Below, piece after piece: positions 8,186-62,363 of a stretch of 64,000 nucleotides of DNA (positions are counted from its first letter, which is position 1; each line of letters opens with the position of its first letter). This DNA comes from a virus. The notes beneath the pieces were generated by a model. That model saw only the letters and a program-made list of their open reading frames with translations. It made no database searches and had not been told where the DNA came from. Position numbers and translations under genes: made by a program. The stretch is taken from the IMG/VR virus record IMGVR_UViG_3300045988_164842, positions 1-64,000 of that record. One strand, 5' to 3'.

Positions 8186-8199
8186 AAGGAGGTGAAAAC

Positions 8200-8436: not shown

Positions 8437-8440
8437 AAAC

Positions 8441-15944: not shown

Positions 15945-16125
15945 AAACTGTCAGGTGAGGTGTACCGCCTGTCACTGTACTTGCGATAAATACAAGACTT
16001 TCAGAGAAAACAGAGACGCCTGTTTAAAGTACATGAGAAATACTGGCTACTACATACAAAAGGGAAGTCACATATCAACAATGTTCCGTACCCACAAAAA
16101 GAGGTGTAACAATGATTTCAATTGA
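15928..16125 (+). CDS. Cys-rich small protein (65 aa)
   Basis: CKNCQVRCTACHCTCDKY cluster; overlaps neighbours. Confidence 0.5.
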   Translation: MKSPCKNCQVRCTACHCTCDKYKTFRENRDACLKYMRNTGYYIQKGSHISTMFRTHKKRCNNDFN

Positions 16126-44620: not shown

Positions 44621-46349
44621 TAAAATGTTCGTTATTTTTTAGGGATATTTCACCCTTAGCGCAACGCACCTATATAGATACGCTCCGTTAAGGAAGAAAT
44701 TAGAATACAACCAGCGTATTCTAAAGTCCCTTAACGCCGTGGAATTTTGTCAGCCCCACAGCAGAAAACAGAAACTTTTTTCGCCATATATTTAAATAGT
44801 CTCTATATAATCCGCCAACGTTGCTAAACTTCAAAGGGATTTTAGCAGTTTCTAACAGCAACAAAAATATTGCTGAAAATCCCCATCAACGCCGAAACAC
44901 GTCAACTTTTTATATAAATCTATTCATTTTTCAAGTTGCTTTATGGAATTTTCATCCAATAGTGAGTTTCACACTATAAATTAACATTCAAAATTAAGTG
45001 TTCCAAAAACGCCGTTTTAAATCGCTTTTTCAGAACGTTCCAAAAACGTTCTGACGATTTTTTGAATTATTAAATTATCTTTTCTATGCTTTTATTATAG
45101 CATAGAATTTTATGTTTGTCAACCCTTTTTGAAAAATTTTTTTGATTTTTTCAGGGCGTTTGACTCTCCCCATAGCCGCCCGGGTTTTTTGTTTTCCCTG
45201 ACTGTGGTTATAGTATACCACGCCCCCACCCTGATTTATACCACTTTAAAATAACATTCTATGAACTTTATATTAATATACAACACTTAGCCCGTAAAGT
45301 GTTAATTATCTATACAGTTGAACGGCTAACCGTTGAATAATACCATATTAATTGCTAATAAAAGTAAAAGCAAGGGTGTTCTTGTATTATATCAGAAATA
45401 ACAATAAATGTAATTGCTATTTTTTTTGTAATAGGAGGTGAACAAGTGTTAACATTTTCCCAGAGCTGGATTGTACTACTCTAACTAATACAGTTTATGA
45501 ACAATTTATGAATTAGTTAAGTTTCAACGATATTTACAATAATAGTAAAATAGATAACTTGTTAATATCTGTAAGACTTGCATAAGGAAAATAATAGAAA
45601 CAACGTGTAATACATATTACACGCGGTTTTAGGCGTATATGGGGCGTGTATTGAAATAACTGTAAAAATAAAGCAGCTTAGAGAACGATACAGGTATTCA
45701 AAAACTCATGTCTTATTTCTCAAATTGAAATCTCTACAAGTACTTCAAAATTTCCACAAATCAAATAAGATTTTTGAGATTATAAGAATAAAAAATCAGT
45801 CTGATACATTTAGGATTTAGGAGTAATCAGTATTGTAAAATGCGTAAAATAAATGATAACTCCGATGGCTTATGGGAAATATTGAATATATAATCTTGTT
45901 ATTATGTTGGCTCGTAAAGAGTAATGATTGCAGAGGTATTCAGGAAGTGAGATTAAGAACTATCAGTCTCAAAGGTCTTCCAGAATTGCAGGTAATATTT
46001 TTTTTAAAAAAATACAAATTGGACGTAACGAATTGCAGGAGACTAATAAAAGAGCAGGTCATATATTTCAAAAAATATCACACAAGAAAAGAAAGTAAGG
46101 ATTGCAGAAGTCTTTGGAGATTCAGTTCTTACAGGCTTATAAGCTGTGTGTTTGTGTTCTATCGGGAAGTTTTCTGTATCTTGTTTCTGCTTGGGATTTT
46201 TTCTTATGAAAAAATTTTTTCTTGCTTTTTCGGGAGGTTTGCAACATCGAGAGGTAAATTGTAAACTTTCTGTTAAGTATATTGACGTGATAAACCACGC
46301 ATTTACGGGCTTTGTGAGCATACAAAAAGTTCCTTAATAATTTGGAAAC

Positions 46350-48526: not shown

Positions 48527-51220
48527 ATGACTAATAGGAATATCATGGTCTACAAATTTGAAAGTCAGTTTCTCAAAGAGCATAACTATAAGCTCAATCT
48601 TTCCTTTGATGAAGCTGAGAGTTGCGGTCAGATTATCAAGATTGCCGATAATCAGTTTCTAAGAACTATCCGCAGGTTTACACTTCATACTATCAATTTT
48701 CAGAGAGTTGAAAGACTGTATCACGAAAGAGATATCTTATCCAAGAAAAATTGCGATGAAGAAAGAAGACTGACTGTTACAAGCCGTATTAATCGCAGTT
48801 TGTTTGTTCCTGAATACATGGAAGTCTCCATGACGACAAATTCTCAGTACAAAGAAATCATCAAAAAGAGAATTACTCTTAATGGCAAAGTGTATAGAAG
48901 ACTTTCATGTTCCGCAGGACAAGCAAGGAACGAAACTGTTATCTTTTGTTCTGAAGAAATTATTTCCGATGTGAAGAAAGCTATTGACAATGACAGAAAA
49001 CCTATTCCCGTTGCTCCGTCAAAGTACAACGCCTATTTTGGTTTAGCAGGTTCCGCAACTCAGATTGTCAGTGAGCCAAGGTTCATTGTGGTGAAAGACT
49101 TTGAGAACGAAACATCTTTTAAATGTCATTGGGTGGAAGAAGCAGGCGACAATGAAGACGATATTATTTCCGAAAAGGTGATAACCCAAAAGATGAATCG
49201 AACAGACGGCATGGGGCTTATATCTCCCAGGCTTGCTAAAAAGTGGGCGAAAGAATTAGACCTTGACTATGTTCCAAGTCAGTTCGGAATAAGACAAGCT
49301 TTTCTCAAAGGTATGTTATGCGTGTTCGATATTCACACTTTCTGTAAAGAAAAGAACCATGGTAACTACATGATAGAAACCGTATATGGCGAAAAGGTAG
49401 ACATACGAAATTACGATATTATCTTTTCTGAATCTCAGTTCAAGTTGTGGAATGCGTATGATAATGAAAAAGACTATGCGGATAAATGTCGGAAGAATAA
49501 GCTTTACTGGGGTGTTCCACAATACGCTCCGAAAGAGTGCAAGAACACGCTGAAAATGAATTATCAATTCCTGCAAACGCTTAATATCAAAGATGAAGAC
49601 ATTCCTCTCATATGTAATCAAACAGTTGAGTGGATAAGAGGGGTTTCATATGCGAACCCTGCATACATATTTCTGTTTTTCTTAGGGGCAAACATAACCG
49701 AGCAGAAAATAAAAACGTTTTTGCAGTACCAAGGAAACTGGTGGCTGAAAGCGTTAATAGCAAATCCAGACCTTATGGTTCAGGATAAATATATCCAAAG
49801 TCAGATTAAGAGGCTTATAAAGAAAAAAATCCATGACACATACATAGGCGAAATTTTTCTTGAAGGTAATTTCCAGATACTTGTGTCAGACCCTTATGCA
49901 TTCATGCAATCAGTGTGTGGTATTACACCTACTGGCTTACTGAAAGAAAATGAATACTACTCAAACTACTGGAATGAACGTGGCGTATCTCTTGTTGATG
50001 GTATGCGTTCCCCTCTCACATTTCGTTCTGAACACGTTTTAATGAATCTTATAAAGAATGATGAAACTGAAAAATGGTACAAACATTGCAAGACTGGCGT
50101 CATTCTGAACTGGCATGGTCATGATTGCGTAAACTTCGCAGGAAGCGACTTTGACCTTGACATTCTCGCAACCACCTGTAATGATGTTGTTCTCAGGTCT
50201 ACATACAAAAACGAGCTTCCTGTAGGGTATGATGTAAGCAAACCTGTAAAGATACTTCCTACGGAAGAAGACCTTATAAAAGCTGACTTCTTTTCTTTTG
50301 GTTCTATCATAGGCAGTATTACAAACAAGAGCAGTAACGCCTATGCATTGCTCGCAAATTTAGAAAGAAACCCTGAAAAGAATAAAGAACAGATTCAGAT
50401 TGTGTATAGCAGGCTTATTCAATGCTGTAAGGCTCAAGGAAAACAAATCGACAAAGCGAAAATAGGTCAAAAGGTTAAAGGTATCCCAAACATCTGGATA
50501 AAGTATATTCCACATGATGACAGGGATACTGATGAAATTACTCAACAAAAAGACCTTATAAATACTTGCTTACTTGACAAACCTCCTTATTTTTTTATTT
50601 ATCGTTATCCTGATTATTACACTAAGTATAGAAAATATATTAAAAATGCTGACGGATATTGCAAAAAGAAGTACCATGCAAGTTTGAATACGGTTTCTCA
50701 GAACCCTGATACAGCGGATAAGAAGAAATTCATTAATAGTTTTTACAAGAAAATGCCTGTGGTCGATAGCCCAAGTTCAATGAATAAGATTTGCCACTAT
50801 CTCGAAAACACTGTAATGGATATTCAGAGTGAAACCACCATTAATCCAGATATAAGCAAATATCTTAGAGATAATACCGTGTTTGTATCAAAGGAGAGGG
50901 AAGACGAAATAATTTCAGCCTTTGTTGTCTTTCTTAGCGAAATCAGTACAACTTTAGGAAACAAGCACTCTGATTCGGATATTGTAAAAGTGTTCCGTGA
51001 AATCTACAGAAACTATTGTATGTCTGATGTTGTGAATGTTCTTGTCGATAATTTTTACAACAGCAAAGCTTCAGTCTTGTGGATAGTTATCGGTAAAAAT
51101 CTTCTTCATAATCTTTGTGTTAATACAGTTGGAGAGGAAAATGTAATGATACCTTTTCCAGACGAACAAGGTGAAATCGAGTACATGAACAAAAGATACG
51201 GTTGGAGGGTCGTGGAATGA
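48527..51220 (+). CDS. YonO / RdRP-like single-subunit two-barrel RNA polymerase candidate
   Basis: SQFGIRQAFLKGMLCVFD (compare QIR..G.KG of the RdRP/YonO clade), IFSESQFKLW, GMRSPLTFRSEHV, and the three-Asp motif AGSDFDLD (compare NADFDGD / DbDGD). 897 aa. Start codon abuts the sigma stop. Confidence 0.6.
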   Translation: MTNRNIMVYKFESQFLKEHNYKLNLSFDEAESCGQIIKIADNQFLRTIRRFTLHTINFQRVERLYHERDILSKKNCDEERRLTVTSRINRSLFVPEYMEVSMTTNSQYKEIIKKRITLNGKVYRRLSCSAGQARNETVIFCSEEIISDVKKAIDNDRKPIPVAPSKYNAYFGLAGSATQIVSEPRFIVVKDFENETSFKCHWVEEAGDNEDDIISEKVITQKMNRTDGMGLISPRLAKKWAKELDLDYVPSQFGIRQAFLKGMLCVFDIHTFCKEKNHGNYMIETVYGEKVDIRNYDIIFSESQFKLWNAYDNEKDYADKCRKNKLYWGVPQYAPKECKNTLKMNYQFLQTLNIKDEDIPLICNQTVEWIRGVSYANPAYIFLFFLGANITEQKIKTFLQYQGNWWLKALIANPDLMVQDKYIQSQIKRLIKKKIHDTYIGEIFLEGNFQILVSDPYAFMQSVCGITPTGLLKENEYYSNYWNERGVSLVDGMRSPLTFRSEHVLMNLIKNDETEKWYKHCKTGVILNWHGHDCVNFAGSDFDLDILATTCNDVVLRSTYKNELPVGYDVSKPVKILPTEEDLIKADFFSFGSIIGSITNKSSNAYALLANLERNPEKNKEQIQIVYSRLIQCCKAQGKQIDKAKIGQKVKGIPNIWIKYIPHDDRDTDEITQQKDLINTCLLDKPPYFFIYRYPDYYTKYRKYIKNADGYCKKKYHASLNTVSQNPDTADKKKFINSFYKKMPVVDSPSSMNKICHYLENTVMDIQSETTINPDISKYLRDNTVFVSKEREDEIISAFVVFLSEISTTLGNKHSDSDIVKVFREIYRNYCMSDVVNVLVDNFYNSKASVLWIVIGKNLLHNLCVNTVGEENVMIPFPDEQGEIEYMNKRYGWRVVE

Positions 51221-52501: not shown

Positions 52502-52583
52502 GCTACCATGGTGAAATAGGAAGACACAGCGGACTTTAAGTTCGTTGAGGAAACTCATGTCGGTTCAAGTCCGACTGGTGGTT
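52502..52583 (+). tRNA. type II tRNA with anticodon UUA (reads UAA; ochre-suppressor type)
   Basis: Hand fold. Acceptor GCTACCA/TGGTGGT (2 G-U pairs). TG. D arm GTG-AAATAGGAAGA-CAC. Anticodon stem GCGGA/TTCGT. Loop C-T-TTA-A-G. Variable arm TGAG-GAAA-CTCA. T arm GTCGG-TTCAAGT-CCGAC. Discriminator T; no encoded CCA. Confidence 0.8.
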
Positions 52584-52611
52584 CTTAGATTTAAGAAAGG
52601 AAGTTCGTGTT

Positions 52612-52773
52612 ATGAGTGGAATATCGGTCAGCAAACTTCTTGCTGAAATCTACAATAAAAACCCAGAAAAATTTGAGATAACTCTTGTAAGAGATAAATA
52701 CGTCGTTGATGTTACGATGTTCTTGTCGAAGGAAGAATTATCTGAGATGCTGGATGAAAAATTTAAAGTGTAA
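52612..52773 (+). CDS. hypothetical small protein (53 aa)
   Basis: AAAGGAAGTTCGTGTT RBS. Hand translation begins MSGISVSKLLAEIYNKNPEKFEITLVRDKYVVDV. Below the ORF-track cutoff. Confidence 0.45.
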   Translation: MSGISVSKLLAEIYNKNPEKFEITLVRDKYVVDVTMFLSKEELSEMLDEKFKV

Positions 52774-52787
52774 AGGAAGTGTAATAA

Positions 52788-53102
52788 ATGACCCAGAAAG
52801 AATTTGTAGAAGCTGTTCAGGAAACACTCAAGAGAGAAAACTATAAAGTTTCTCAGGTTTCCTTAAACGCTCTTGTAAATGCAATAGGAGAAACAATAGT
52901 ACATTGTATCGCAAATGGAGAGAACGTTCGTATACCTTATGTAGGCAACTTCTCCGCCAAGAAAAGAAAAGGTTCAAAAACTGTCTGCCATTTTGGCGAA
53001 AACATTGGCAAGGTTTTTGAAGTTCCTGCAAAGATGAAGCCTAACTTTTCTCCGGCAAAAGCATACACAGATGTATGTAATGAAATGAAGTGTGAGGAAT
53101 AA
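52788..53102 (+). CDS. HU/IHF-family DNA-binding protein
   Basis: MTQKEFVEAVQETL...VSLNALVNAIGETIVHCIANGENVRIPYVGNFSAKKRKG...VPAKMKPNFSPAKAY follows the HU fold pattern. Confidence 0.75.
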   Translation: MTQKEFVEAVQETLKRENYKVSQVSLNALVNAIGETIVHCIANGENVRIPYVGNFSAKKRKGSKTVCHFGENIGKVFEVPAKMKPNFSPAKAYTDVCNEMKCEE

Positions 53103-54247
53103 TGGCTACTCAGGCGTTGATTGGTGGTAATCGAAAAAGAGTGGTATCGAGCAAGTGTAGTATGTGTGGAAAGTCTTATACAAACCAAGAAGATAATTTC
53201 CCGTATACTGCTTCTGTTCTTTACAAGCACAATAACTACCGTGCAACTATCTGCTACAATTGCCTTGCGAATGAATTGTATCCATACTACTTCAAAGAAT
53301 TTGGTAACGCAAATGAAACTATGCGTAGGATATGTATGCATATTGACGTTTATTATAGTGATACTATCGTAAACACATCGGCTGTAGCAAAGAAAAGCAA
53401 ACCTATAGAAAAAATAAAGGCTTACATCTCTCATGCAAACCTTGTTTCTTATAAAGGGAAAACTTTCGACACAACAATTGACGAAGAAGAGGGTTACACA
53501 TATGATAAAGATGATGTTCGTACATCTCTTACACTTGTAAACAAAAGAAAGATGGCAACTCAGATTACATCACTAACTTCTGAAAATGATAATCTCAAAG
53601 CTGAAATCACTTCCCTTAAAGATGAAGTTGACACTTTGAGAAAATCTGCCGAGTTGAAAAACCTTGATTCAGATGAAGCTCAGAACTTCAAGAATTGGGG
53701 TGAGGGGTTATCACCCTCGGATTATAAGGTTCTCAATGTTCAATACCAAGAGTGGATAGAGAAAAACATTGTGGAAGATAAAACAAGAGAAGTGCTTGTA
53801 AGGAAAATTTGTATCCTTTCTTTACTTAGCGATAAAGCTTTGAAAGAGGGTAATTTTAAAGAATACAACGATATTAATAAATGCTTTGTAGAAGCTTTAA
53901 AACTTGCTTGTCTTTCACCACAACAGATGGACGATATGAAAACAAGTGAGGGTGTGACTTACGGCACACTGATTAAAAGGTTTGAACAAGATGAACCGTT
54001 ACCTGAAATCTCTGATAAGTTCAAAGATGTGGACGGCATTGTGAGATATACCACTGTTTATTTTATCGGACATTTATGTGCTATGCTCGGAATAAAGAAC
54101 CGTTTCTCTGATGATTACCATAAAGAAATGGAAAAGTACAAAACCATGCTTGACGGTTTTGAGAATTCCACATCAGAGGAAGTTTTTGACTATTTATCTG
54201 AGAAGGGTTTTCCGACCGAGATAGGTGGTGAGGACAATTCTCAGTAA
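53102..54247 (+). CDS. putative terminase small subunit / packaging accessory protein
   Basis: Sits immediately upstream of and overlapping TerL. N-terminal Cys pairs (CSMCGK...CYNC) and a central coiled coil. Assignment is by synteny only. Confidence 0.35.
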   Translation: MATQALIGGNRKRVVSSKCSMCGKSYTNQEDNFPYTASVLYKHNNYRATICYNCLANELYPYYFKEFGNANETMRRICMHIDVYYSDTIVNTSAVAKKSKPIEKIKAYISHANLVSYKGKTFDTTIDEEEGYTYDKDDVRTSLTLVNKRKMATQITSLTSENDNLKAEITSLKDEVDTLRKSAELKNLDSDEAQNFKNWGEGLSPSDYKVLNVQYQEWIEKNIVEDKTREVLVRKICILSLLSDKALKEGNFKEYNDINKCFVEALKLACLSPQQMDDMKTSEGVTYGTLIKRFEQDEPLPEISDKFKDVDGIVRYTTVYFIGHLCAMLGIKNRFSDDYHKEMEKYKTMLDGFENSTSEEVFDYLSEKGFPTEIGGEDNSQ

Positions 54248-55964
54248 TCTCGATATTGTATATTTGAAATGCAAAAAAGGTCTCGGTAAATGGACGAAAT
54301 TCTACAGACATAACCCACATAGGCTTGCTTTAGAATACTTTGGTATGAAGTGGCTTACACCTATGCAGTGTATTCTAATTGACATTGTTCTGAAATTTCC
54401 GTATCTGATAATGATAGCTTCACGAGGCATGGGCAAGACAATTCTTCTTGCCGTATGTATCTGTATAAAAGCTGTTCTCTATCCGGGAATAAAAATTGTT
54501 ATATCGGCAGGTAAACGCCGACAGAGTCTTGAAATTATTTTGAAAATTCAGAGTTTCTGTATGGATAGTGAAAATCTCAGGCGTGAAATCGAAGATATAA
54601 AGGTTGGTCTTGCTGATGGTGGTATTGTATTCAAGAATGGTTCAAGTGTAACAATCGCTACTGCTTCTGAAAATGCTCGTGCAATAAGAGCGAACTGGAT
54701 TATTTATGATGAGTTTGTCAAGATACCAAAGATAATCATAGACACTGTTATAAGAAAATTCAAAGCCGGAGTTCGTGTACCTGTCTTTAAAACAAAACCT
54801 GAATATAAAAATTACCCAGATGAAGAAAACTGTGAAACTTATATTTCGTCTGCTACATATAAACATCATTGGGCGTGGTTAAAGTTCAAAGACTTTTTTA
54901 ATCTCATGGTTCAAGGAAAAGACTATGCGGTCTTAGGTTTTCCATGGCAATTTGCGGTTGCTCAGGGTTACTATCCTTTAAAGCAAGTTATAGACGAAAT
55001 GAATGAAGCAAGCTTTAATAGTGTTTCATGGTCTATGGAAATGGATAGTCTGTTCTATGGTGAAAGCGAAAACGCTTTCTTTTCATTCAACGAGTTCAGC
55101 AAGAATAGGGAAATCGTTTTGCCTGTATATCCAAAAGAATGTTATAAAGACCTAAGAGATAGTAAGTTTCGATATATCGAAAAGCAAGATGGTGAAATCC
55201 GCCTACTTGTAATGGACGTAGCTACGCAAGGTGGCGACAAAAACGACAACTCGGCTTATGTTCTGTATAGGCTTATCCCCGATGAGAACAACCAGTATAC
55301 CCGTTATATTTCCTATATAGAAGCTGTAAATGGAGGACACTCCCTTGACCAAGCTTTGAGGTTCAAATATCTTTACTATAATCTCGATGTTGACTATGTA
55401 GGTATTGATGCTTTAGGTGTCGGTACTGGTGTATTCGACAATCTCGTTATCGAAATCAGAGATGAAGAAAAGGATATTGTGTATCCTGCATGGAACACGG
55501 TTGATGATGATAAAATGTCAGGGCGTTGTAAGATTAATGACGCTCCCAAAATTATCTATTCAATCAAAGCAAGTCAAATATTTAATAGTGAATGTGCTGT
55601 TCGCCTTAAAGATGATTTGCGTAGAGGAAAAGTCAAATTGCTCATAGGAGAGGAATCAGGTTCTGAAGAACTTGAAAAGATAAAAGGATTTGAAGAACTT
55701 TCTATTGAAACACAAACTCTTTTCAGGCTTCCCTATATTCAGACAACCGCTCTGGTGAATGAAGCCGTCAATCTTTCTTATGAAGTTCAGAATAACAACA
55801 TCAAAGTAAAAGAGGCTTCGGGTATGAGGAAGGATAGATATTCTGCGTGTTCATACGGAAATCAACTTGCTTCTGAAATTGAAAAAAATTTATACTTACC
55901 AAACGAAGCAACAAGTCTTAGTTCGCTTATAAGAATGAGGACACCTGTGTACGAAAGGCGGTGA
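54225..55964 (+). CDS. terL: terminase large subunit
   Basis: Walker A ASRGMGKT, Walker B IIYDEF, C-terminal nuclease-like region. GTG start overlaps the upstream gene, so the start is uncertain. Confidence 0.8.
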   Translation: MVRTILSNLDIVYLKCKKGLGKWTKFYRHNPHRLALEYFGMKWLTPMQCILIDIVLKFPYLIMIASRGMGKTILLAVCICIKAVLYPGIKIVISAGKRRQSLEIILKIQSFCMDSENLRREIEDIKVGLADGGIVFKNGSSVTIATASENARAIRANWIIYDEFVKIPKIIIDTVIRKFKAGVRVPVFKTKPEYKNYPDEENCETYISSATYKHHWAWLKFKDFFNLMVQGKDYAVLGFPWQFAVAQGYYPLKQVIDEMNEASFNSVSWSMEMDSLFYGESENAFFSFNEFSKNREIVLPVYPKECYKDLRDSKFRYIEKQDGEIRLLVMDVATQGGDKNDNSAYVLYRLIPDENNQYTRYISYIEAVNGGHSLDQALRFKYLYYNLDVDYVGIDALGVGTGVFDNLVIEIRDEEKDIVYPAWNTVDDDKMSGRCKINDAPKIIYSIKASQIFNSECAVRLKDDLRRGKVKLLIGEESGSEELEKIKGFEELSIETQTLFRLPYIQTTALVNEAVNLSYEVQNNNIKVKEASGMRKDRYSACSYGNQLASEIEKNLYLPNEATSLSSLIRMRTPVYERR

Positions 55965-57460
55965 GATGTATAGCAAAGAAAATAAAAAAGAATAATGACG
56001 TAGACAACCTTGAAAATGGGTTGCCTTTTTCTGTTTATGAGAAACTGCAAAAGTTAAATATTCAGGACGCAAATAGCGGCTACACCCCTTTTGAACATCA
56101 TCGTTGCGGTTTCTTCCCTATGAAAAGAGATAAGCTTTTCAGATTACTGAAAAATCCATACGTCAATTTCAAGGCTCTTATTAATCTGAGCATTGATTTG
56201 TATTACGGAAATATCATGTATCGGCGGCTTTGTGACACTTTAGCTGATATGATGTTGTATTCATATACAATCGCACCTACAGGAAATGCTTATGAAAGAA
56301 CGCCTGCGAATATAGCAAAGTGGCAAAAGGCTTATGCTACAGTCACAAAGAAACTCGAAGCTATGAATATCCAGCACAATGCAAATACAATAGCAAGAGT
56401 GGTGGTTCGTGAGGGTTGTTATTATGGTGTAAGCATAAGTAGTAAAATAAGTAACTTTATGCTGTACAGGTTTCCACATGAGTATTGCAAGATAACTTCT
56501 TTCGAGGACGGTGTTCCTTTATACGCCTTAGATTTAACGTATTTTTCAGACAAAGAAATTCTGATTAATTCTATAGGTGGAGAACTTCTTGAAGCTTATA
56601 CAGCTTTCAAAACAAATCAAAGAGAGAGATGGTATGAAATCAGCTCAAAGATTTCTGTCTGTATACTTGCTGATAACAGCACCCTCAGACCTTTGCCATT
56701 GTTTTGTGGTATTTTCCCAGACCTTTATTATCTCGATGATTATAAAGACCTTGCGAAGAACAAGAGAGAGATTGACCTCTATAAGTTAATTTCTATGAAA
56801 ATTCCTCTTGACTCTAAAGGAAATCTTATACTGCAAAATAAGTTTCTTACAGATTGCTACGACCAGACGGCAAACCAACTTCCCTCACAGGTAGGGTTGT
56901 CTATGTCACCTTGCAGTATTGACACAGTAGATTTCGATTCCTCGAACTCTACGACTGAGGACGTTACAGACAAAGCTACGAGGGATTTATATAGTACCGC
57001 TGGTATATCCTCTTTTCTTTTTAATAATGAGAATGCGAGTAGTAGTGCGTTACTTCAAAGTGTGAAAAACATGATGTCTTTTGTCAGACCCATTATGAAG
57101 AATATTGAAAACTGGATTAATCGTTGTTTGAAACTGCAAGCAGGGGTAAACTTCAAGGTAGTCTTTCAGTATGTTTCTATCTATACAAGAGAAACATATA
57201 TTGCCGAACTAAGAAAAGATATGCAATATGGTTTACCTGTAAAGAGTGCTTTAGCTACATTGGAAGATATTCCGGCAACAGACCTGACAGGCATGATGTT
57301 TCTTGAAAATAACGTGCTTGACATTCGCAGTCAACTTACGCCACCTGCAACGTCAGCTACTACCACTGTTGATGATATACAATCAGGTCGCCCTGAAAGC
57401 GATATGCTGTCCGATAGTGGTGAGCAAACAAGAGAAAGCGAGAGTAATGCCGAAAGATGA
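55961..57460 (+). CDS. portal protein (by synteny)
   Basis: 499 aa, directly downstream of TerL with a GTGA overlap. Acidic C-terminus. Confidence 0.6.
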   Translation: MRCIAKKIKKNNDVDNLENGLPFSVYEKLQKLNIQDANSGYTPFEHHRCGFFPMKRDKLFRLLKNPYVNFKALINLSIDLYYGNIMYRRLCDTLADMMLYSYTIAPTGNAYERTPANIAKWQKAYATVTKKLEAMNIQHNANTIARVVVREGCYYGVSISSKISNFMLYRFPHEYCKITSFEDGVPLYALDLTYFSDKEILINSIGGELLEAYTAFKTNQRERWYEISSKISVCILADNSTLRPLPLFCGIFPDLYYLDDYKDLAKNKREIDLYKLISMKIPLDSKGNLILQNKFLTDCYDQTANQLPSQVGLSMSPCSIDTVDFDSSNSTTEDVTDKATRDLYSTAGISSFLFNNENASSSALLQSVKNMMSFVRPIMKNIENWINRCLKLQAGVNFKVVFQYVSIYTRETYIAELRKDMQYGLPVKSALATLEDIPATDLTGMMFLENNVLDIRSQLTPPATSATTTVDDIQSGRPESDMLSDSGEQTRESESNAER

Positions 57461-57663
57461 TAAAGGTAATATCTGAAGAACTCAACAAGAAGCTACAAGC
57501 TAAAGGCTTTGTTCCTCTTTGTGTAGAAAGGTATACAAACGGAAACGGATATGTATACCAGAACAATTCTGAAATTATTGACTTTTTAAAGTTTAACAAC
57601 TTTAAAGGTCAATTTTTTTTCTGCCAAAAACTCAAATTTGAGAAAGGTGGTGAGAAAGAATGA
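57457..57663 (+). CDS. hypothetical small protein (68 aa)
   Basis: ATGA couplings on both sides. Confidence 0.5.
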   Translation: MIKVISEELNKKLQAKGFVPLCVERYTNGNGYVYQNNSEIIDFLKFNNFKGQFFFCQKLKFEKGGEKE

Positions 57664-58838
57664 AAAAAGCGAACCTGAAATTTCAGGCCACCTTAACGCC
57701 TGTAAAAGCGATTAATCCTGAACTTACTTTGTGTGAGTGCTTGGTTCAGTCTATAGGAAAAAACAACAACTACACGAATTTCAGCTATGACAATGTACTC
57801 AAAGCGTTGCCTACGCTTGATGGTATTCCTGTCATCGGACACGTCATGCAGAAACCTGACGGTACGCCGTATGTTGGCGGACATGATGAAAGTGTTGTCG
57901 TAGATGATGATGGTAACGTCAACGTGCAGGCTGTAACCGTTCCATATGGTTTTGTATACCCTGAAACTTCTCAGATTGTAAAAATCGTAGAGAACGGTGA
58001 GGTTAAAAATTACGTCAAGTGTGATGTTGTTCTCTGGACTGGACGATATCCTGAAATTGTTGAAGCAGGCTACAATAACTCAATTGACTACTGGCAGAGT
58101 ATGGAGATTGAGTATTCAAATGCTGTTGATTTACAGGAAGATAAAAGATATCTGGATATTGTTGATTACTGGTATCAGGCTTTATGTCTTCTTGGAAAAT
58201 CAGATACAGCAGATTACAACACAGAGCCTTGCTTTCCGTCTGCGAGCGTAAAGGCTTATAGTCTTTTGACAGACGAAACCTTTAAGAAAGAATTTGAAAA
58301 ATTCAAGCAGATTGTTAGCAAGAGTTACAAGAAAGAACCAGAGGTGAAAAACATGAGCGATATAAATACACTTGTAGCAGAGCCGTCTACAGAAACAGAC
58401 ACAAACAAAGGCTATTCTGACCTCGAAAGTGTTTACAAAGCAAAAATTGAATTGCTTGAACAGCAGTACAAGGCACTTTCAAAGGAGTTTGAAACTTACA
58501 AATCAGAGTACACAACCCCGGATTCCGAAGTGCAGGAACTTAGAGATTACAAAGCAACAAAGGAATTTGAAGAACACAAGGCGGAAATGGAAGCTGTCTT
58601 TGCGGACTTTGAAGACCTTAAATGCTTTACAGAATTTAAAGCTCTCATGGCTGATTATTCGGCTTATGAAACGGCAGACGCACTCAGAAATGCTTGCTAT
58701 GTAATTAGGGGGAAGAACGCCCAGACGGTTACATATTCAAAGCAGGTACAGACGCAGAAAGTTCCTGTTTATGACAATCCGCCAAAGGACACTGACGATG
58801 ACCCTTACGGTGGAGAATTTAAGGAATATTTTGAGTAA
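57660..58838 (+). CDS. prohead protease / scaffold fusion candidate
   Basis: N-terminal LPTLDGIPVIGHV...YVGGHD resembles the prohead protease (S78/U35) pattern. The C-terminal half is a Glu/Lys-rich coiled coil. Confidence 0.45.
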   Translation: MKKANLKFQATLTPVKAINPELTLCECLVQSIGKNNNYTNFSYDNVLKALPTLDGIPVIGHVMQKPDGTPYVGGHDESVVVDDDGNVNVQAVTVPYGFVYPETSQIVKIVENGEVKNYVKCDVVLWTGRYPEIVEAGYNNSIDYWQSMEIEYSNAVDLQEDKRYLDIVDYWYQALCLLGKSDTADYNTEPCFPSASVKAYSLLTDETFKKEFEKFKQIVSKSYKKEPEVKNMSDINTLVAEPSTETDTNKGYSDLESVYKAKIELLEQQYKALSKEFETYKSEYTTPDSEVQELRDYKATKEFEEHKAEMEAVFADFEDLKCFTEFKALMADYSAYETADALRNACYVIRGKNAQTVTYSKQVQTQKVPVYDNPPKDTDDDPYGGEFKEYFE

Positions 58839-58850
58839 AGGAGAAGATAT

Positions 58851-59357
58851 ATGGCAAATAAGCACATTGTTTGTATAACTGACGCTATGTCAGGTACAGA
58901 TGTTCGTACGGATATTCAGTGTGGTAAGTATTTCTATAATGACCTTACATTCATGGATATTGACAATGGAAGATTTCTCAAGATTGATAAGCTTATAAAC
59001 AGAAATATGTACAAGCTTGTTCCTGCGGAAGATACAACGCCTATTGACCAGTTGGCTCTTGTTGCTTCACCTGAATTTCTTCCAGACCCACGTTATCAGT
59101 GTCTTGATGATTTCTACAACCCGGCAGGTGAAGCTATTCGTTTCTACAGACTGAAACCGCATGACAAATTCAGCCTTAGCAAACTCGGCTTTCTTACTAC
59201 ACCAAAGGTTGGCGATAAGGCGTTTCTCAGCAAAGGTTCTCCGTCAAGCCTTTCCACTGCAACGACAACATCAAGTGATACAACTGCAATCGGGGAAATC
59301 ATTGACGCATTCATTCTCGGCGGTATTCAGTTTTATACTGTCGAAGTCGGAAAGTGA
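58851..59357 (+). CDS. head-associated protein (decoration or accessory, by position)
   Basis: 168 aa, between the scaffold and capsid genes. Confidence 0.4.
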   Translation: MANKHIVCITDAMSGTDVRTDIQCGKYFYNDLTFMDIDNGRFLKIDKLINRNMYKLVPAEDTTPIDQLALVASPEFLPDPRYQCLDDFYNPAGEAIRFYRLKPHDKFSLSKLGFLTTPKVGDKAFLSKGSPSSLSTATTTSSDTTAIGEIIDAFILGGIQFYTVEVGK

Positions 59358-59368
59358 GAGGTGATAAT

Positions 59369-60394
59369 ATGACACCAGAAGAAAGAAGAAATAAAAAAGC
59401 GAACATTATTTCATACATAATGGACGTTATCCACGGAAAAGCAAAGAAGTACGGAAACGAAGATAAAAAGAAGCAGAATGAAATTATCCGCAAAAAGCTT
59501 ATCGAGTGTAATGACGGTGCAATTCCTCATTCTTTCCGTGACATAAATAAGAAAAGTCTTGCTTTTGAAATTATAGAAGAAGTTATCACTATAACTTCAA
59601 GAGAGGGTCTTTCTGAAAATGATTTTTACAACAACTACGTTGAAGAAAAGACTGTCGGATATGGTGATATCTGTTCATTTAAGATTAAAAGAGAGTGGGA
59701 CTACGTAATGGCGGAAGCTTCGAGAGGTCTTCGTGAAGTTCGTCGTCAGCGTATTAACATGGGGGAAACCCTGACACTCACTCCAAAAATCCATGAAATC
59801 ACTGTGTATGATGAATACATTCGTGTTCTTTCAGGTCAGACAACTATTTCCGAAATGATTGAAGCTGTAACTAAAGCAAAGAAGAATGCAATCTTTCAGG
59901 ACATTTACACAGCTTTTCTCGGCGTTGGTTCAAAAGACCTTGGTACAAGATTTGCCCCGGTAGCAGGTACATATTCAGAGGACGCACTGCTTGACCTTGT
60001 TACAGCAGTTCAGGCGGCTAATAACGGTGGAAATGTCGTTATCCTCGCAACGCTTAAGGGAGCAAGAAAAATTCGTGCTACAGACGGTTCTGAAACAGGC
60101 AAGCAGAACATTTACGACTACGGCTATGAACTTAAATGGAATGGTATCCCTGTTGAAATTATTCCGCAGAAGTTCAAAGCAGGTACGGATGAGTTTATCT
60201 TTGACGACAATATTATTTATGTCATGCCTCTTTTAGGCGAAAAACCTATCAAGGTTTGTCATTTTGGTAGCGATTATCTCCGTGTTGGCGAGCCTACCGA
60301 CAATCACGATATGACGATTGACACAACTCTTATTTCTTTGTGGAACATCGCTGTTTTGGTTGGTAGAGAATGGGGCGTTTATAAGATGACCTGA
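59369..60394 (+). CDS. major capsid protein (by synteny)
   Basis: Start MTPEERRNKK follows GAGGTGATAAT. 341 aa. Followed by a strong terminator, as is typical for highly expressed capsid genes. Confidence 0.6.
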   Translation: MTPEERRNKKANIISYIMDVIHGKAKKYGNEDKKKQNEIIRKKLIECNDGAIPHSFRDINKKSLAFEIIEEVITITSREGLSENDFYNNYVEEKTVGYGDICSFKIKREWDYVMAEASRGLREVRRQRINMGETLTLTPKIHEITVYDEYIRVLSGQTTISEMIEAVTKAKKNAIFQDIYTAFLGVGSKDLGTRFAPVAGTYSEDALLDLVTAVQAANNGGNVVILATLKGARKIRATDGSETGKQNIYDYGYELKWNGIPVEIIPQKFKAGTDEFIFDDNIIYVMPLLGEKPIKVCHFGSDYLRVGEPTDNHDMTIDTTLISLWNIAVLVGREWGVYKMT

Positions 60395-60408
60395 TAGGGT
60401 CTATATAC

Positions 60409-60439
60409 AGGGCATGGGCGACTATGCCCTTATTTTTTT
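60409..60439 (+). terminator. intrinsic terminator after the capsid gene
   Basis: AGGGCAT(60409-60415)/ATGCCCT(60424-60430), then TATTTTTTT. Confidence 0.8.
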
Positions 60440-60458
60440 AAGAAAGCGAGGGAGAAAT

Positions 60459-60947
60459 TTGGCTGTAAAAACAAAAAAGGAAACACCTGTAGAAGAAACA
60501 AAGAAAGAAAAGCCTGAGTTTGACCGCAATCAAGAAGTTGCCGTCATTAACGGATTTGACGGAAAGATTGTTTACACATCAAAAAACGGCATATATTCTT
60601 TTGAGATGAATAGTTTTGGTGACAAAGAATATATCCCTGTCAGTGAACTTATTGTCATGAAGAATACAGCTTCATCTTTTTTCAAGAACAACTGGCTTTT
60701 GTTTGAGGATAAAAAAGTAATTGACTATCTGGGCGTTTCAAAGTTCTATCAGGGGACTTTGAGTGTAGAAGAAATTGACGCTCTTTTCGATTTGCCAACT
60801 GATAAAATGGTAGAAACAATTGCTCATATGCCTGAATGTCAGAAACGAAATATCCGTTTTAGAGCGGTTCAGGTTGTTTCAAATGGTTCAATCGACAGCA
60901 ACAAAAAGATTTCAGCCATCAAAGGTGCTTTCGGAATAGGTGATTAA
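60459..60947 (+). CDS. hypothetical structural-module protein
   Basis: TTG start after GAGGGAG. The ATG at 60414 lies in the loop of the terminator hairpin and is disfavoured. Confidence 0.5.
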   Translation: MAVKTKKETPVEETKKEKPEFDRNQEVAVINGFDGKIVYTSKNGIYSFEMNSFGDKEYIPVSELIVMKNTASSFFKNNWLLFEDKKVIDYLGVSKFYQGTLSVEEIDALFDLPTDKMVETIAHMPECQKRNIRFRAVQVVSNGSIDSNKKISAIKGAFGIGD

Positions 60948-60948
60948 T

Positions 60949-61413
60949 ATGACTTCATACGAAGAAATCTTTCAAATGTTTTTGCGTAGAGTACAAGACC
61001 ATGAAATCTTGAAATACAATTCGGCTATCCGTGAAGACTTACTTGAAAATATGCTCATTTCAGCCTGTAGTGAAATCTCCATTTTGGCAGGTGATAAAGA
61101 TGGATTACCCGAGCTACAGCGAAATGACGATGGAAAAGAGTTTGCAAGCGACCTTAGTTATCAACTGAAAGATGTTATCGTTATGGGTATGGTTTATCTA
61201 TGGTGTGAACGCTGCCTTAACGATACGGATAACTTTGTAAATGTATTGTCTGTCAATGGCTTGTCACAGTATTCACCTGCGAATCTTCTCTCTCAGCTTT
61301 TATCTATACGAGATAACAGCAAATATAACTTTGAAGTCAGGGCTATTCAGTGTGGTAATCAACTCGTAGGTTTCGGAAATCTCAGACCGCCGAAATTAGA
61401 AAGGACGAGCTGA
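60949..61413 (+). CDS. head-tail connector/adaptor candidate
   Basis: Start MTSYEEIFQMF follows GGTGATTAAT. Assignment by position only. Confidence 0.4.
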   Translation: MTSYEEIFQMFLRRVQDHEILKYNSAIREDLLENMLISACSEISILAGDKDGLPELQRNDDGKEFASDLSYQLKDVIVMGMVYLWCERCLNDTDNFVNVLSVNGLSQYSPANLLSQLLSIRDNSKYNFEVRAIQCGNQLVGFGNLRPPKLERTS

Positions 61414-62363
61414 TGGACTGGACTATATACGAAAACCTTGTTTCTGTTTGCGGTTCTGACAAAAGAGAAAGAATTCTTAATCACTCTAAAGAGATTATCA
61501 GAAAAAGAGATTTGGAATTTGTAGGCTGTAAAGATGTTATCATAGGCGGTCAAAATCAAAAGCTTGTAATAAGCAATGGAACAAGTGACTCCGAAAAGAA
61601 AATCAAATCACTTCCCGATGAAACATTTTATCTTGGTGATTATGTTCAATTCCGTGAAGCTTTCTGGCTTGTAACATCTGTAAATTTAGACGATGAAGTT
61701 TTCCGTTCAGGAACTATGACACTCTGTAACTTTGAAATTAGGTGGCAAAGAAAATCTGATAACGAAATAATTTCACGATGGTGTGTAGCTGAAAGTTCTG
61801 AAAAAGCAAGTGTAGATACTCAAAAGGTTCTCCGGTCGGCGAACGAGGAATTTGTTATTAAAGTTCCTTGTGATGAGGAAACGTCACAAATAGACATTAA
61901 TAGGCTTCTGATGATTTGCTATAAAGGTGGTAAACAAAAGACGTATCGGGTTACAAACACAAATCCTATTGATAACGCTGTTCCATCTGAAAACAAAGGC
62001 TACATTGTATGGAATGTGCGTCAAACGGCTTATTCAGATGAAAAGGATAATTCCGAATTACTTATTGCTGACTATGATGAAACAAAACCTACAGAACCTG
62101 TAAGGATAACGTATTCCGGACTACCTGAGATTCGTATTGGTAACAGGGGGAAAACCTTTACCGCTGAAACCGATAAGCAAGTTACGTGGAGATATGTTTC
62201 ACTTCCTGCCGATACTATGAAAATCTCGGCAAAACAAGATGATAATAAGTATGTAGTAAAAGTTGACAATGATTTTTCTCTTATAGGCAAAACTATTAAA
62301 CTGGTATGTTCTGTAGACGGAACAGAGTCTGTTTTGCTTATAAGTATTATAGGGGGTGTGTAA
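61413..62363 (+). CDS. structural-module protein (316 aa)
   Basis: TGATG coupling; no motif. Confidence 0.55.
   Translation: MDWTIYENLVSVCGSDKRERILNHSKEIIRKRDLEFVGCKDVIIGGQNQKLVISNGTSDSEKKIKSLPDETFYLGDYVQFREAFWLVTSVNLDDEVFRSGTMTLCNFEIRWQRKSDNEIISRWCVAESSEKASVDTQKVLRSANEEFVIKVPCDEETSQIDINRLLMICYKGGKQKTYRVTNTNPIDNAVPSENKGYIVWNVRQTAYSDEKDNSELLIADYDETKPTEPVRITYSGLPEIRIGNRGKTFTAETDKQVTWRYVSLPADTMKISAKQDDNKYVVKVDNDFSLIGKTIKLVCSVDGTESVLLISIIGGV

What the first reader, a model, noticed from the sequence alone, without database searches (positions are those of the whole stretch)
52502..52583. Type II tRNA with anticodon UUA (ochre suppressor) just upstream of the packaging/structural module
The hand fold gives a regular cloverleaf with a long variable arm. 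The anticodon loop is C-U-UUA-A-G on a GCGGA/UUCGU stem. The 5' half of the anticodon arm (GCGGACU) matches bacterial tRNA-Tyr as I recall it, consistent with a G34-to-U change (GUA to UUA). The D arm resembles tRNA-Leu. Suppressor tRNAs in phages have mostly been discussed for TAG or TGA recoding. Here TAA is the most frequent stop codon among the genes in this window, so genome-wide recoding is not compatible. The tRNA would instead cause regulated or partial read-through (candidate target: 8239-8241). Other possibilities are countering a host translation-targeting defence, or being inactive: the discriminator is U and no CCA is encoded.
Basis: partly seen in the sequence, partly recalled or inferred. 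Interest (0 to 1): 0.8.

Follow-up and report, generated by a model that had tools for sequence, protein, structure and literature searches.

The report
Leucine tRNA turned stop-codon reader
A gut phage carries a real tRNA gene whose anticodon reads the stop codon TAA; it evolved from the phage's own leucine tRNA by one anticodon change and has been kept folded by selection, even though the phage still uses TAA as its main stop signal.

Summary
ARAGORN and Rfam (43.4 bits against a threshold of 29) both call a long-variable-arm tRNA with anticodon UUA at 52502-52583, just upstream of the packaging and structural genes of an SPbeta-like, 88,193-bp circular human-gut phage.

A sister phage (about 76% DNA identity) carries a textbook tRNA-Leu(UAA) of the same length in the same slot. 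The window version differs at 12 of its 82 nt. The changes include A35U (the anticodon), A38G, C72U and A73U, and A73 is the main LeuRS identity element.

The UUA form is found in all 19 assemblies of its clade, as five alleles. Six of their seven variable sites are stem changes that keep base pairing, and none lies in a loop (P about 4e-4 under a neutral model). It is therefore a selected, folded RNA and not a decaying pseudogene.

There is no TAA recoding: TAA ends 53 of 98 genes. It is private to this haplotype, because a sibling genome has the same tRNA with an intact gene.

The most likely function, which is inferred and not shown, is a deliberately weak ochre suppressor expressed with the late genes.

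The parts
52502..52583 (+). Type II (long-variable-arm) tRNA gene with anticodon UUA, derived from tRNA-Leu(UAA); allele 'Sup1'
   Evidence: ARAGORN; Rfam 43.4 bits; orthologous tRNA-Leu(UAA) in L008/L009; five Sup alleles
52536..52538 (+). Anticodon TTA (U34 U35 A36). U35 replaces the A35 of the Leu allele. The loop CUUUAAG is invariant in all five Sup alleles.
52540..52540 (+). G38 (A38 in the Leu allele). It destroys the A36-A37-A38 motif needed for i6A37 and can pair with C32.
   Evidence: PMC5699536
52582..52583 (+). U72 (giving G1.U72) and discriminator U73. The Leu allele has C72 and A73; allele Sup5 has U72 and G73.
   Evidence: A73 rules from PMC9976931 and PMC2377443
52118..52497 (+). 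Two small upstream ORFs (92-aa Cys-rich and 34-aa hydrophobic) on the same strand. The second ends at a TAA 4 nt before the tRNA. Both are conserved in the Leu-type relative.
52612..52773 (+). 53-aa ORF that opens the late module, immediately downstream of the tRNA. In relatives L008 and L032 a Tad2-like gene is inserted between the tRNA and this ORF.
48527..51220 (+). YonO-type single-subunit RNA polymerase (Pfam RdRP PF05183), 1.3 kb upstream. It is the presumed late-gene polymerase.
   Evidence: PMC5467207
8200..8436 (+). Small conserved gene (78 codons, strong RBS) interrupted at codon 14 by an in-frame TAA (8239-8241) where eight homologues have GAA (Glu). It is a tandem paralogue of 8441-8656. 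The TAA is private to this haplotype.
58851..59357 (+). Late gene p168. Its stop is TGA here and in all Sup-clade genomes, but TAA in three outgroups.
59369..60394 (+). YonB-like late gene, capsid-protein candidate by position only. Its stop is TGA followed by TAG here, but TAA in three outgroups.
   Evidence: fold test failed

Best explanation
The feature is a phage tRNA-Leu(UAA) gene converted into an ochre-reading tRNA by an A35-to-U change in the anticodon, and then attenuated. SHOWN: it is a real type II tRNA gene. Its canonical Leu ancestor-like form occupies the same slot in a sister phage. The UUA form is present in every assembly of its clade. Its alleles vary only by changes that keep the cloverleaf paired. 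The genome is not recoded. INFERRED: it is transcribed at the head of the late operon by the YonO-like polymerase. It is then cut out by RNase P and RNase Z and given CCA by the host enzyme. It is charged only poorly, because A73, the main LeuRS determinant, has been replaced by U or G and the acceptor helix now carries G.U pairs; charging would be by LeuRS at a few per cent of normal efficiency, or by a U35-reading synthetase. It probably lacks i6A37 because A38 is now G. It would therefore insert an amino acid at UAA (and by wobble at UAG) at a low rate during late infection. That would give low-level read-through that a genome ending most genes in TAA can tolerate. What the read-through is for is unknown. 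Candidates are minor C-terminally extended virion proteins, buffering of ochre nonsense alleles such as the one at 8239, or interference with host termination.
For: Two independent tools call the tRNA with anticodon UUA. A sister phage has an 83-nt tRNA-Leu(UAA) in the same slot, with a fully Watson-Crick acceptor stem, A73 and loop CUUAAAA; the window allele differs from it at 12 of 82 nt. The tRNA is 85.5% identical between the two phages, against 74-78% for 17 kb of flanks. The UUA form is present in all 19 scanned loci of its clade plus the window, as five alleles. Among these alleles there are 7 variable sites: 6 in stems, all keeping a standard pair, 1 at the discriminator, and none in loops. 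Under the measured neutral spectrum P=3.8e-4 for at least 6 of 7 pair-keeping changes, and P=0.003 for all 6 stem hits keeping their pair. The tRNA's overall diversity of 8.5% equals that of the neighbouring coding genes. The LeuRS tertiary determinants A14, A15-U48, G18G19 and A20a are all retained, and only A73 is lost (PMC9976931). A73U and A73G lower leucylation 45- and 143-fold, and one acceptor G.U lowers it about 38-fold, in a bacterial system (PMC2377443). The A36A37A38 motif is required for i6A37, and loss of i6A weakens suppressors (PMC5699536). The position matches the start of the YonO-driven late operon in SPbeta, which also begins with a non-coding RNA (PMC5467207). Consistent but anecdotal: the only nonsense-interrupted conserved gene found is an ochre one, and two late genes switched TAA to TGA specifically in this clade.
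Against: There are no expression, charging or read-through data. There is no overall avoidance of TAA: in 19 orthologue pairs, 3 went TGA/TAG to TAA and 2 went TAA to TGA, and TAA ends 53 of 98 genes. No gene was found that needs read-through. The losses of A73, of A38 and of the Watson-Crick 1-72 pair are also what inactivation of a harmful suppressor would look like. C32-G38 can pair, and the minimum-energy fold closes the anticodon loop to 3 nt, which could impair decoding. The discriminator differs between alleles (U or G), so the charging identity may not be under selection. The structure-preservation statistics rest on 7 sites, and some of these may have spread by recombination between alleles.
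Confidence: 0.4

Rival explanations
1. It is a decoding-inactive, tRNA-shaped processing element. The cloverleaf is kept because RNase P and RNase Z cuts at this spot separate or stabilise the late-operon transcript. The anticodon change was tolerated only after charging was switched off by loss of A73 and the loop was disabled by G38, so no amino acid is inserted at stop codons.
For: Selection is visible on the fold but not demonstrably on the anticodon or on charging identity. The discriminator is U in four alleles and G in one. A73 is lost in all of them. TAA is not avoided. The equivalent slot in SPbeta holds a non-tRNA structured RNA, DUF3800-VIII, at the head of the late operon (PMC5467207), and other relatives hold assorted tRNAs there.
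Against: The anticodon stem and loop are also conserved or pair-preserving, although RNase P and RNase Z need mainly the acceptor and T arms. The seven-base anticodon loop is invariant across the five alleles, though the statistical power is low. No processing-only tRNA of this kind has been shown in phages.
Confidence: 0.25
2. It is a neutral relic: a tRNA-Leu gene knocked out by mutations in the anticodon and the discriminator, on its way to being lost.
For: It has lost its sense anticodon, A73 and A38, and has gained several G.U pairs. Rfam scores fall from 55.6 bits for the Leu allele to 39-47 bits for the Sup alleles. Use of the Leu codon TTA is lower than in the Leu-type sister (17.8% against 25.6%, p=0.005), although this is confounded by GC content.
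Against: It is retained in every one of 19 assemblies across haplotypes that differ by 3-10%. All 6 stem substitutions keep pairing and no loop position has changed (P about 4e-4). There are no indels, and all alleles stay above the Rfam threshold.
Confidence: 0.1
3. It is an anti-defence device: a decoy, sponge or replacement substrate for a host system that attacks tRNAs or translation termination.
For: The slot behaves as an accessory hot spot. In two lineages a Tad2-like (anti-Thoeris family) gene lies directly after the tRNA. The genome also carries an AcrVA2-like gene and a faint Apyc1-like match. Phage tRNAs with altered anticodon loops that evade anticodon nucleases are known (own knowledge, not checked here).
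Against: No known defence system targets a UUA anticodon or would be relieved by ochre suppression. A replacement tRNA must keep its sense anticodon, and this one did not. Adjacency to Tad2 is absent in most alleles.
Confidence: 0.1
4. It is a dedicated rescuer of the TAA-interrupted gene at 8200-8436.
For: The gene has an intact RBS, and homology continues beyond the TAA. This is the only in-frame stop found in a conserved gene.
Against: The sibling genome ERZ28614874 scaffold_326 has the UUA tRNA together with the intact GAA codon, so the tRNA came first. Another haplotype lost the ATG of this gene. The gene has a tandem paralogue. It lies in the early region, whereas the tRNA lies at the head of the late module. 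The TAA is documented for one contig only.
Confidence: 0.03
5. Genome-wide reassignment of TAA to a sense codon.
For: Only the presence of a cognate tRNA.
Against: TAA terminates 53 of 98 genes, ORFs are long and densely packed under the standard code, and there is a single in-frame TAA. TAA recoding was not found in large phage surveys (PMC13037316).
Confidence: 0.01

Closest known systems
Classical bacterial ochre suppressors (E. coli supC/supM from tRNA-Tyr, supB from tRNA-Gln, supG/supL from tRNA-Lys; own knowledge, reviewed in Eggertsson and Soll 1988)
   Same: A single anticodon base change creates UUA. They read UAA and, by wobble, UAG. They are tolerated only when weak.
   Different: Those are host mutants selected in the laboratory. 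They keep their acceptor identity and are not maintained in nature. This one is phage-borne, derived from tRNA-Leu at position 35, has additionally lost A73 and A38, and is present throughout a natural clade.
Leucine-inserting suppressors such as supP (leuX, anticodon CUA)
   Same: They work because LeuRS ignores the anticodon (PMC9976931), which is why an A35U tRNA-Leu would at first have been a competent suppressor.
   Different: supP keeps A73 and the A37-A38 context and reads UAG. Here A73 and A38 are gone.
Suppressor tRNAs of stop-codon-recoded phages (crAss-like, Lak and others; anticodons CUA and UCA) (10.1101/2021.08.26.457843; PMC9523058)
   Same: They are phage-encoded, associated with late genes, and found in human-gut phages infecting standard-code hosts.
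   Different: Those genomes carry many in-frame TAG or TGA codons and have stopped using that codon as a terminator. Here the codon is TAA, it is the main terminator, and there is only one private in-frame case.
Predicted tRNA-Sup-TTA of Klebsiella jumbo phage phiKp24 (PMC8386662), and the TAA-suppressor tallies in Borges et al.
   Same: A UUA-anticodon tRNA predicted in a standard-code phage, with no assigned role.
   Different: Those are bare predictions. Here the origin, the series of alleles and the selection on the fold are documented.
Non-coding RNA at the head of the YonO-transcribed late operon of SPbeta (PMC5467207), here matched to Rfam DUF3800-VIII
   Same: A structured RNA just upstream of the first late gene, downstream of the YonO polymerase gene.
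   Different: It is a different RNA family with no sequence relationship. The 53-aa ORF here has no detectable similarity to YonK, so the analogy is positional only.

Membership tests
tRNA (Rfam RF00005), type II / long variable arm | Full-length match to the covariance model above the gathering score | tested here: met
   43.4 bits against 29, model positions 1-71; the other alleles score 39-56 bits
tRNA (Rfam RF00005), type II / long variable arm | Cloverleaf with four stems plus a paired variable arm; U8, A14, G18G19, U33, purine 37 and a TTCAAGT T-loop | tested here: met
   All 23 pairs are standard; the conserved bases are read directly from the sequence
Bacterial tRNA-Leu | Orthology to a canonical tRNA-Leu gene | tested here: met
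   Same slot, same length and 85.5% identity to the tRNA-Leu(UAA) of L008/L009
Bacterial tRNA-Leu | Tertiary LeuRS determinants: U8-A14, A15-U48, G18G19, A20a | tested here: met
   All are present in the sequence; rules from PMC9976931
Bacterial tRNA-Leu | Discriminator A73 | tested here: not met
   U73 in four alleles and G73 in one
Bacterial tRNA-Leu | Leucine anticodon (A35) | tested here: not met
   U35, anticodon UUA
Functional ochre suppressor tRNA | Anticodon UUA in a seven-base loop | tested here: met
Functional ochre suppressor tRNA | Favourable anticodon-loop context (A37-A38, no Watson-Crick 32-38 pair) | tested here: not met
   G38 can pair with C32, and the MFE fold closes the loop; the A36A37A38 motif is lost (PMC5699536)
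Functional ochre suppressor tRNA | The tRNA is expressed, processed and aminoacylated | not testable with these tools
   Requires tRNA sequencing or charging assays
Functional ochre suppressor tRNA | Measurable UAA read-through | not testable with these tools
   Requires reporters or proteomics
Stop-codon-recoded phage (alternative genetic code) | Many conserved genes interrupted by the reassigned codon | tested here: not met
   One in-frame TAA, private to this haplotype
Stop-codon-recoded phage (alternative genetic code) | The reassigned codon is abandoned as a terminator | tested here: not met
   TAA ends 53 of 98 genes
   The orthologue is tRNA-Leu(UAA), the change is at position 35, and A73 is absent
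Phage attachment-site tRNA fragment | A partial tRNA 3' segment next to an integrase | tested here: not met
   The gene is full length, and the only tyrosine recombinase lies 19 kb away at 32486-33394

The most novel reading that the evidence does not exclude
This clade may be a snapshot of the first steps toward reassignment of TAA, which has never been seen in bacteria or their viruses. The proposed steps are these. A phage tRNA-Leu acquires the UUA anticodon. Its charging is throttled by loss of A73, so that ambiguous decoding is survivable. The two likely most abundant virion genes move from TAA to TGA. Finally, the first in-frame TAA appears in a dispensable gene. In this reading the tRNA is a selected, expressed, low-efficiency ochre suppressor produced from the leader of the late operon.
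Probability: 0.12. Interest if true: 0.9.

Novelty: new variant of a known kind. Interest (0 to 1): 0.62.

Why it matters
Natural suppressor tRNAs in phages have been understood only in genomes that reassign TAG or TGA. UUA-anticodon tRNAs in standard-code phages have been listed by prediction tools and left unexplained. This case has a traceable origin (tRNA-Leu, A35U), a sister phage that still carries the canonical gene, and five alleles that show selection on the fold. It also shows repeated loss of the one base that LeuRS needs. Together these make a concrete, testable system for three questions. First, how can a virus live with a tRNA that reads its own main stop codon? Second, is weak ambiguous decoding selected for? 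Third, how do the first steps of codon reassignment proceed? The allele set (A73, U73 and G73; A38 and G38) is also a ready-made natural mutagenesis series for engineering tunable ochre suppressors in Firmicutes.

Tried and rejected
- Megablast of the region against INPHARED phages found no match. A distant blastn of the tRNA hit only tRNA-Leu genes of unrelated phages.
- Pattern scans for the tRNA in IMG/VR and in GTDB genomes found nothing, and the RNAP-based scan of GTDB genomes found no relative. The host therefore remains unidentified, and the clade is absent from those collections.
- BUCT082 and relatives at about 46% identity carry either no tRNA or sense tRNAs downstream of the RNAP gene.
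- I tried a SNP-desert test within the species. It is uninformative, because the first set held only two haplotypes and the 1.3 kb upstream is also poor in SNPs.
- The shuffle control of the count of structure pairs cannot assess one-sided Watson-Crick/G.U changes, so I replaced it with an exact neutral calculation. An earlier simulation timed out.
- Two of my own scripts failed: one on file names and one on a structure string that was off by one. Both were redone.
- I tested read-through fusions by looking for adjacent in-frame genes after a TAA and scanning both halves against Pfam. No pair looks like the two halves of one family, and the number of in-frame neighbours is what chance gives.
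- The first all-frames tblastn scan for in-frame stops was noise. It was redone with gene calls only.
- TAG scarcity as a link to UAG wobble reading is rejected, because the Leu-type relative is equally poor in TAG.
- Avoidance of TAA in the clade is not supported overall. Only two late genes switched.
- The 53-aa ORF shows no homology to YonK.
- The AlphaFold model of the YonB-like protein was too poor (pLDDT 38) to test for a capsid fold, so no fold search was run. The PDB sequence search was empty.
- An attachment-site fragment and genome-wide recoding were both rejected (see the membership tests).
- The ORF-free stretch at 44.7-45.9 kb has no Rfam match and no notable repeats.

Full report
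**1. The observation.**
ARAGORN finds a single tRNA in the window, at 52502-52584 on the + strand, and labels it tRNA-Stop with anticodon tta. Rfam's tRNA model matches 52502-52583 over its full length at 43.4 bits, against a gathering score of 29 and with E=6.7e-6 for the whole window.

The sequence gives:
- acceptor stem GCUACCA/UGGUGGU, with G1.U72 and U3.G70 wobbles;
- a 3-bp D stem with the loop AAAUAGGAAGA;
- anticodon stem GCGGA/UUCGU;
- anticodon loop C-U-U-U-A-A-G, with the anticodon at 52536-52538;
- a 13-nt variable arm with a 3-bp stem;
- T arm GUCGG-UUCAAGU-CCGAC;
- discriminator U73, followed by CUU where CCA would be.

All 23 cloverleaf pairs are standard pairs. One caveat is that C32 and G38 can pair, and the minimum-energy fold extends the anticodon stem to 7 bp with a 3-nt loop.

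**2. The genome.**
The gene 1.3 kb upstream encodes an 897-aa protein that hits Pfam RdRP (PF05183). It is 43% identical to a protein of Bacillus phage BUCT082 (Spbetavirus) and 27% identical to SPbeta YonO. Downstream lie an HU-like gene, then YonG-like, large terminase, portal, YonD-, YonB-, YomX-, YomW- and YomU-like genes. This is the SPbeta late module.

The window matches two human-gut metagenome contigs of 88,248 and 88,292 bp exactly over every stretch compared. The coordinates of four loci on these contigs show a circular genome of 88,193 bp. Each contig equals that length plus its assembly k-mer, 55 or 99.

This 82 kb contains no other tRNA. I found no release factor, aminoacyl-tRNA synthetase or tRNA-repair gene in the parts annotated. 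The host is unknown. Distant RNAP homologues lie in contigs labelled Oscillospiraceae and Bacilli.

**3. Origin of the tRNA.**
Homologues of the neighbouring YonG-like and RNAP proteins fall into three groups: a 97-100% group, one lineage at 79-82%, and everything else at 50% or less. The 79-82% lineage (L008 and L009, from two samples) is 74-78% identical in DNA over 17 kb. In exactly the same slot it carries an 83-nt tRNA that ARAGORN calls tRNA-Leu(UAA).

That allele is canonical. It has a fully Watson-Crick acceptor stem (GCUACCA/UGGUAGC), A73, the loop C-U-U-A-A-A-A and no encoded CCA. The window allele differs from it at 12 of 82 positions:

| Region | Change (Leu allele to window allele) |
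|---|---|
| D loop | C20A, U21G |
| Anticodon stem | A27G with C43U (an A.C mismatch becomes G.U); C40U |
| Anticodon | A35U |
| Anticodon loop | A38G |
| Variable region | C44U |
| T loop | A59G |
| Acceptor stem | A70G, C72U |
| Discriminator | A73U |

The gene is thus a tRNA-Leu whose middle anticodon base changed. A14, A15-U48, G18G19 and A20a are the tertiary elements that E. coli LeuRS uses (PMC9976931), and all are present.

**4. Is it decaying or maintained?**
I collected the tRNA locus from 21 related loci. Nineteen loci, representing up to 19 assemblies from different studies, carry the UUA form; the window makes twenty. Two loci carry the Leu form. These sequences make six alleles:

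| Allele | Loci | Differences from Sup1 |
|---|---|---|
| Sup1 | window and 10 loci | (reference) |
| Sup2 | 4 loci | C28U, U40C, C41U, A65G, G70A |
| Sup3 | 2 loci | A65G, G70A |
| Sup4 | 2 loci | A31G |
| Sup5 | 1 locus | G70A, U73G |
| Leu | 2 loci | the 12 changes in section 3 |

Among the five Sup alleles there are seven variable sites. Six are in stems, and every one converts a Watson-Crick pair to G.U or the reverse. One is the discriminator. None lies in any loop, and 99.3% of pair cells are standard pairs.

I measured the substitution spectrum in 17 kb of flanks. With it, a random substitution in a stem keeps the pair with probability 0.375. All six doing so has P=0.003, and at least six of seven substitutions being pair-keeping stem changes has P=3.8e-4. 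The tRNA's overall diversity (8.5% variable sites) is the same as that of the neighbouring coding genes, at 7.6-11%. It is therefore evolving at the normal rate, but only through structure-neutral changes.

The comparison between the Leu and Sup forms shows the same pattern. All five stem changes keep or restore pairing. All eight transitions are C-to-T or A-to-G, whereas the flanks are symmetric at 52:48 (P=0.005).

There are two caveats. The number of sites is small, and two of the variable states are shared with the Leu allele and could have spread by recombination. Even so, a gene in free decay is unlikely.

**5. What the changes should do.**
This section rests on established rules and was not tested here.
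- LeuRS does not read the anticodon, so the A35U change alone should have produced a leucine-inserting ochre suppressor (PMC9976931).
- A73 is the crucial LeuRS determinant. In Aquifex aeolicus, A73U and A73G lower kcat/Km 45-fold and 143-fold, and a single G.U in the acceptor helix lowers it about 38-fold (PMC2377443). All Sup alleles have lost A73 and carry G1.U72.
- G73 is an antideterminant against LeuRS and TyrRS, and C2-G71, which is present here, is an antideterminant against SerRS in E. coli (PMC9976931). A clean switch to Ser or Tyr is therefore not expected.
- The new U35 is a determinant for GlnRS, LysRS and TyrRS. GlnRS also reads the 1-72 and 3-70 pairs and the discriminator (PMC9976931). 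Partial charging by such an enzyme is possible but untested.
- A38G removes the A36-A37-A38 motif required for i6A37. With A35 also gone, it removes the TrmL determinants (PMC5699536, PMC9976931). Loss of i6A lowers suppressor efficiency (PMC5699536).

Taken together, the body is still a LeuRS-type substrate that should be charged and should decode only weakly. Absence of an encoded CCA says nothing, since the canonical Leu allele lacks it too.

**6. No recoding, and the candidate target.**
Rough gene calls give TAA 49, TGA 35 and TAG 3 in the window, and TAA 53, TGA 40 and TAG 5 over 82 kb. The scarcity of TAG is shared by the Leu-type relative (TGA 14, TAA 8, TAG 1), so it is a trait of the group and is not linked to the UUA tRNA. 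In 19 orthologue pairs, three stops went from TGA or TAG in the relative to TAA here and two went the other way. There is no general flight from TAA.

- A 13-codon ORF with the RBS AGGAGGTGAAAACATG ends at this TAA, and the frame continues for 64 codons.
- The next gene is a tandem paralogue with the same RBS and N-terminus, and it has GAA at the aligned position.
- Eight intact homologues, up to 96% identical, all have Glu there.
- I aligned 416 gene calls from related loci against the 82 kb by tblastn. This was the only in-frame stop in a conserved gene with strong homology on both sides. Coverage by relatives was roughly -8.6 to 16.6 kb and 44 to 73.5 kb in window coordinates.

It is not the reason the tRNA exists:
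- The 96,334-bp genome ERZ28614874 scaffold_326 has the intact GAA gene (L026) and also the UUA tRNA (L032, allele Sup5).
- Another haplotype keeps GAA but has lost the ATG of this gene, which is now ATA.
- The truncated product is on record for the 88,292-bp contig only.

This is a dispensable gene that acquired an ochre mutation in a background that already carried the tRNA. That is compatible with buffering by a suppressor, and equally compatible with plain pseudogenisation.

**7. Expression context.**
All genes from the helicase at 46575 through the late module are on the + strand. The tRNA lies 4 nt after the stop of a 34-aa ORF and 28 nt before the 53-aa ORF that opens the late module. 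No convincing sigma-70 promoter or terminator flanks it.

[quoted passage not shown] In the SPbeta record that region holds an Rfam DUF3800-VIII RNA about 260 nt upstream of yonK, and it holds no tRNA. The leader of the late operon thus appears to be a slot for structured RNAs in this phage group. Other relatives carry Arg+Met or Ser+Ser+Thr tRNAs downstream of the polymerase gene. In two lineages a Tad2-like gene follows the tRNA directly. The analogy is positional only, because the 53-aa ORF has no detectable similarity to YonK.

**8. Two observations that fit active suppression but prove nothing.**
(a) The late genes p168 and YonB-like end in TAA in the Leu-type sister, in a 34%-identity outgroup and in BUCT082. 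They end in TGA in every genome of the UUA clade, with orthologous C-termini, and YonB here has the tandem stop TGA-TAG. By position, YonB is the capsid-protein candidate. I could not confirm the fold, because the model had pLDDT 38. Five other late genes keep TAA.

(b) TTA makes up 17.8% of Leu codons here against 25.6% in the sister, in orthologous genes (Fisher p=0.005). The higher GC content here could explain this.

**9. Verdict.**

The best-supported account is a domesticated, attenuated suppressor (0.40). The rivals are:
- a decoding-dead, tRNA-shaped processing element (0.25);
- a neutral relic (0.10);
- an anti-defence role (0.10).

Predicted UUA tRNAs in standard-code phages have been reported before without explanation (PMC8386662; 10.1101/2021.08.26.457843), and TAA recoding has not been seen in phage surveys (PMC13037316). 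This is therefore a new, unusually well-documented variant of a known kind, and its function is still open.

Noticed in passing
window 48527-51220, with 52788-63577: A YonO-type single-subunit RNA polymerase (Pfam RdRP) and a complete SPbeta-like late module sit in an 88,193-bp circular human-gut phage. That is much smaller than the Bacillus SPbeta-like phages listed (125-134 kb). About 1,000 homologues of the polymerase were found at E<=1e-30, mostly at 45-50% identity.
   Followed up: partly
L020 6589-8391 (about 200-2,000 bp upstream of window position 1) and window 32486-33394 (-): The genome has a Rep3-type replication initiator (PF01051) and a XerC/D-like tyrosine recombinase, and the assemblies are circular. 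The phage may persist as a plasmid (phage-plasmid) and not by integration. A TnpB (IS605 OrfB) plus resolvase pair lies next to the rep gene.
   Followed up: no
window 1425-2342; window 12756-13391; L008 7838-8104; L032 2224-2481: Several anti-defence-type genes are present: AcrVA2-like (PF26125), a metallo-beta-lactamase-fold protein with a faint Apyc1 (anti-Pycsar) match in relatives, and a Tad2-like (anti-Thoeris) gene inserted directly after the tRNA in two related lineages but absent here.
   Followed up: partly
whole window; L008: TAG is a very rare terminator (3 of 87 gene calls in the window, 5 of 98 over 82 kb) and TGA is unusually common (about 40%) for a 37% GC genome. The Leu-type relative shows the same pattern, so it is a trait of the group.
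   Followed up: partly
L041 (SPBc2, NC_001884.1) 10105-10170, about 260 nt upstream of yonK: An Rfam DUF3800-VIII RNA motif (47.5 bits against a threshold of 40.2) lies in the 1.7-kb unannotated gap between yonN and yonK of SPbeta. This is probably the 'unannotated non-coding RNA' at the start of the YonO late transcript reported by Forrest et al. 2017.
   Followed up: partly
L040 1644-1706: A RAGATH-18 RNA (71.3 bits) lies immediately after a TnpB/IS605 OrfB gene that has been inserted upstream of the tRNA locus in the 95-kb relative.
   Followed up: no
window 4834-8185: Three tandem Bro-N/ANT (antirepressor-type) paralogues flank a C5 DNA methylase gene at 5595-6668. They are followed by a run of small tandem paralogous genes that share an identical RBS and N-terminus (8184-8207 is identical to 8425-8448).
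   Followed up: partly
L024 9670-9924 and L025 658-912 (equivalent to window 8200-8436): In another haplotype the same small gene that carries the TAA here has lost its ATG (now ATA). The gene caller then used an upstream TTG. This is a second independent damaging change in the gene.
   Followed up: yes
window 10751-11305 and 36217-37017 (-): Pentapeptide-repeat proteins (PF01469) are encoded on both arms of the genome, and relatives carry further copies.
   Followed up: no
window 16112-21254 and 31303-32406 (-): The phage encodes its own primase-helicase fusion, a DNA polymerase III alpha-type replicase (1,063 aa) and a beta sliding clamp, as well as RecT and SSB.
   Followed up: no
window 44670-45871: A 1.2-kb stretch has no ORF of 60 aa or more, at the point where transcription switches from the - strand to the + strand. 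It has no Rfam match and no notable repeats, and it is the most divergent part between haplotypes.
   Followed up: partly
window 57660-59357: The YonD-like gene ends in TAA and is in frame with the next gene (p168), four codons downstream. The same in-frame arrangement holds in L008 and BUCT082 but not in L010. It may be chance (a one-in-three probability in each genome), but it is the most obvious place to look for a read-through fusion.
   Followed up: partly
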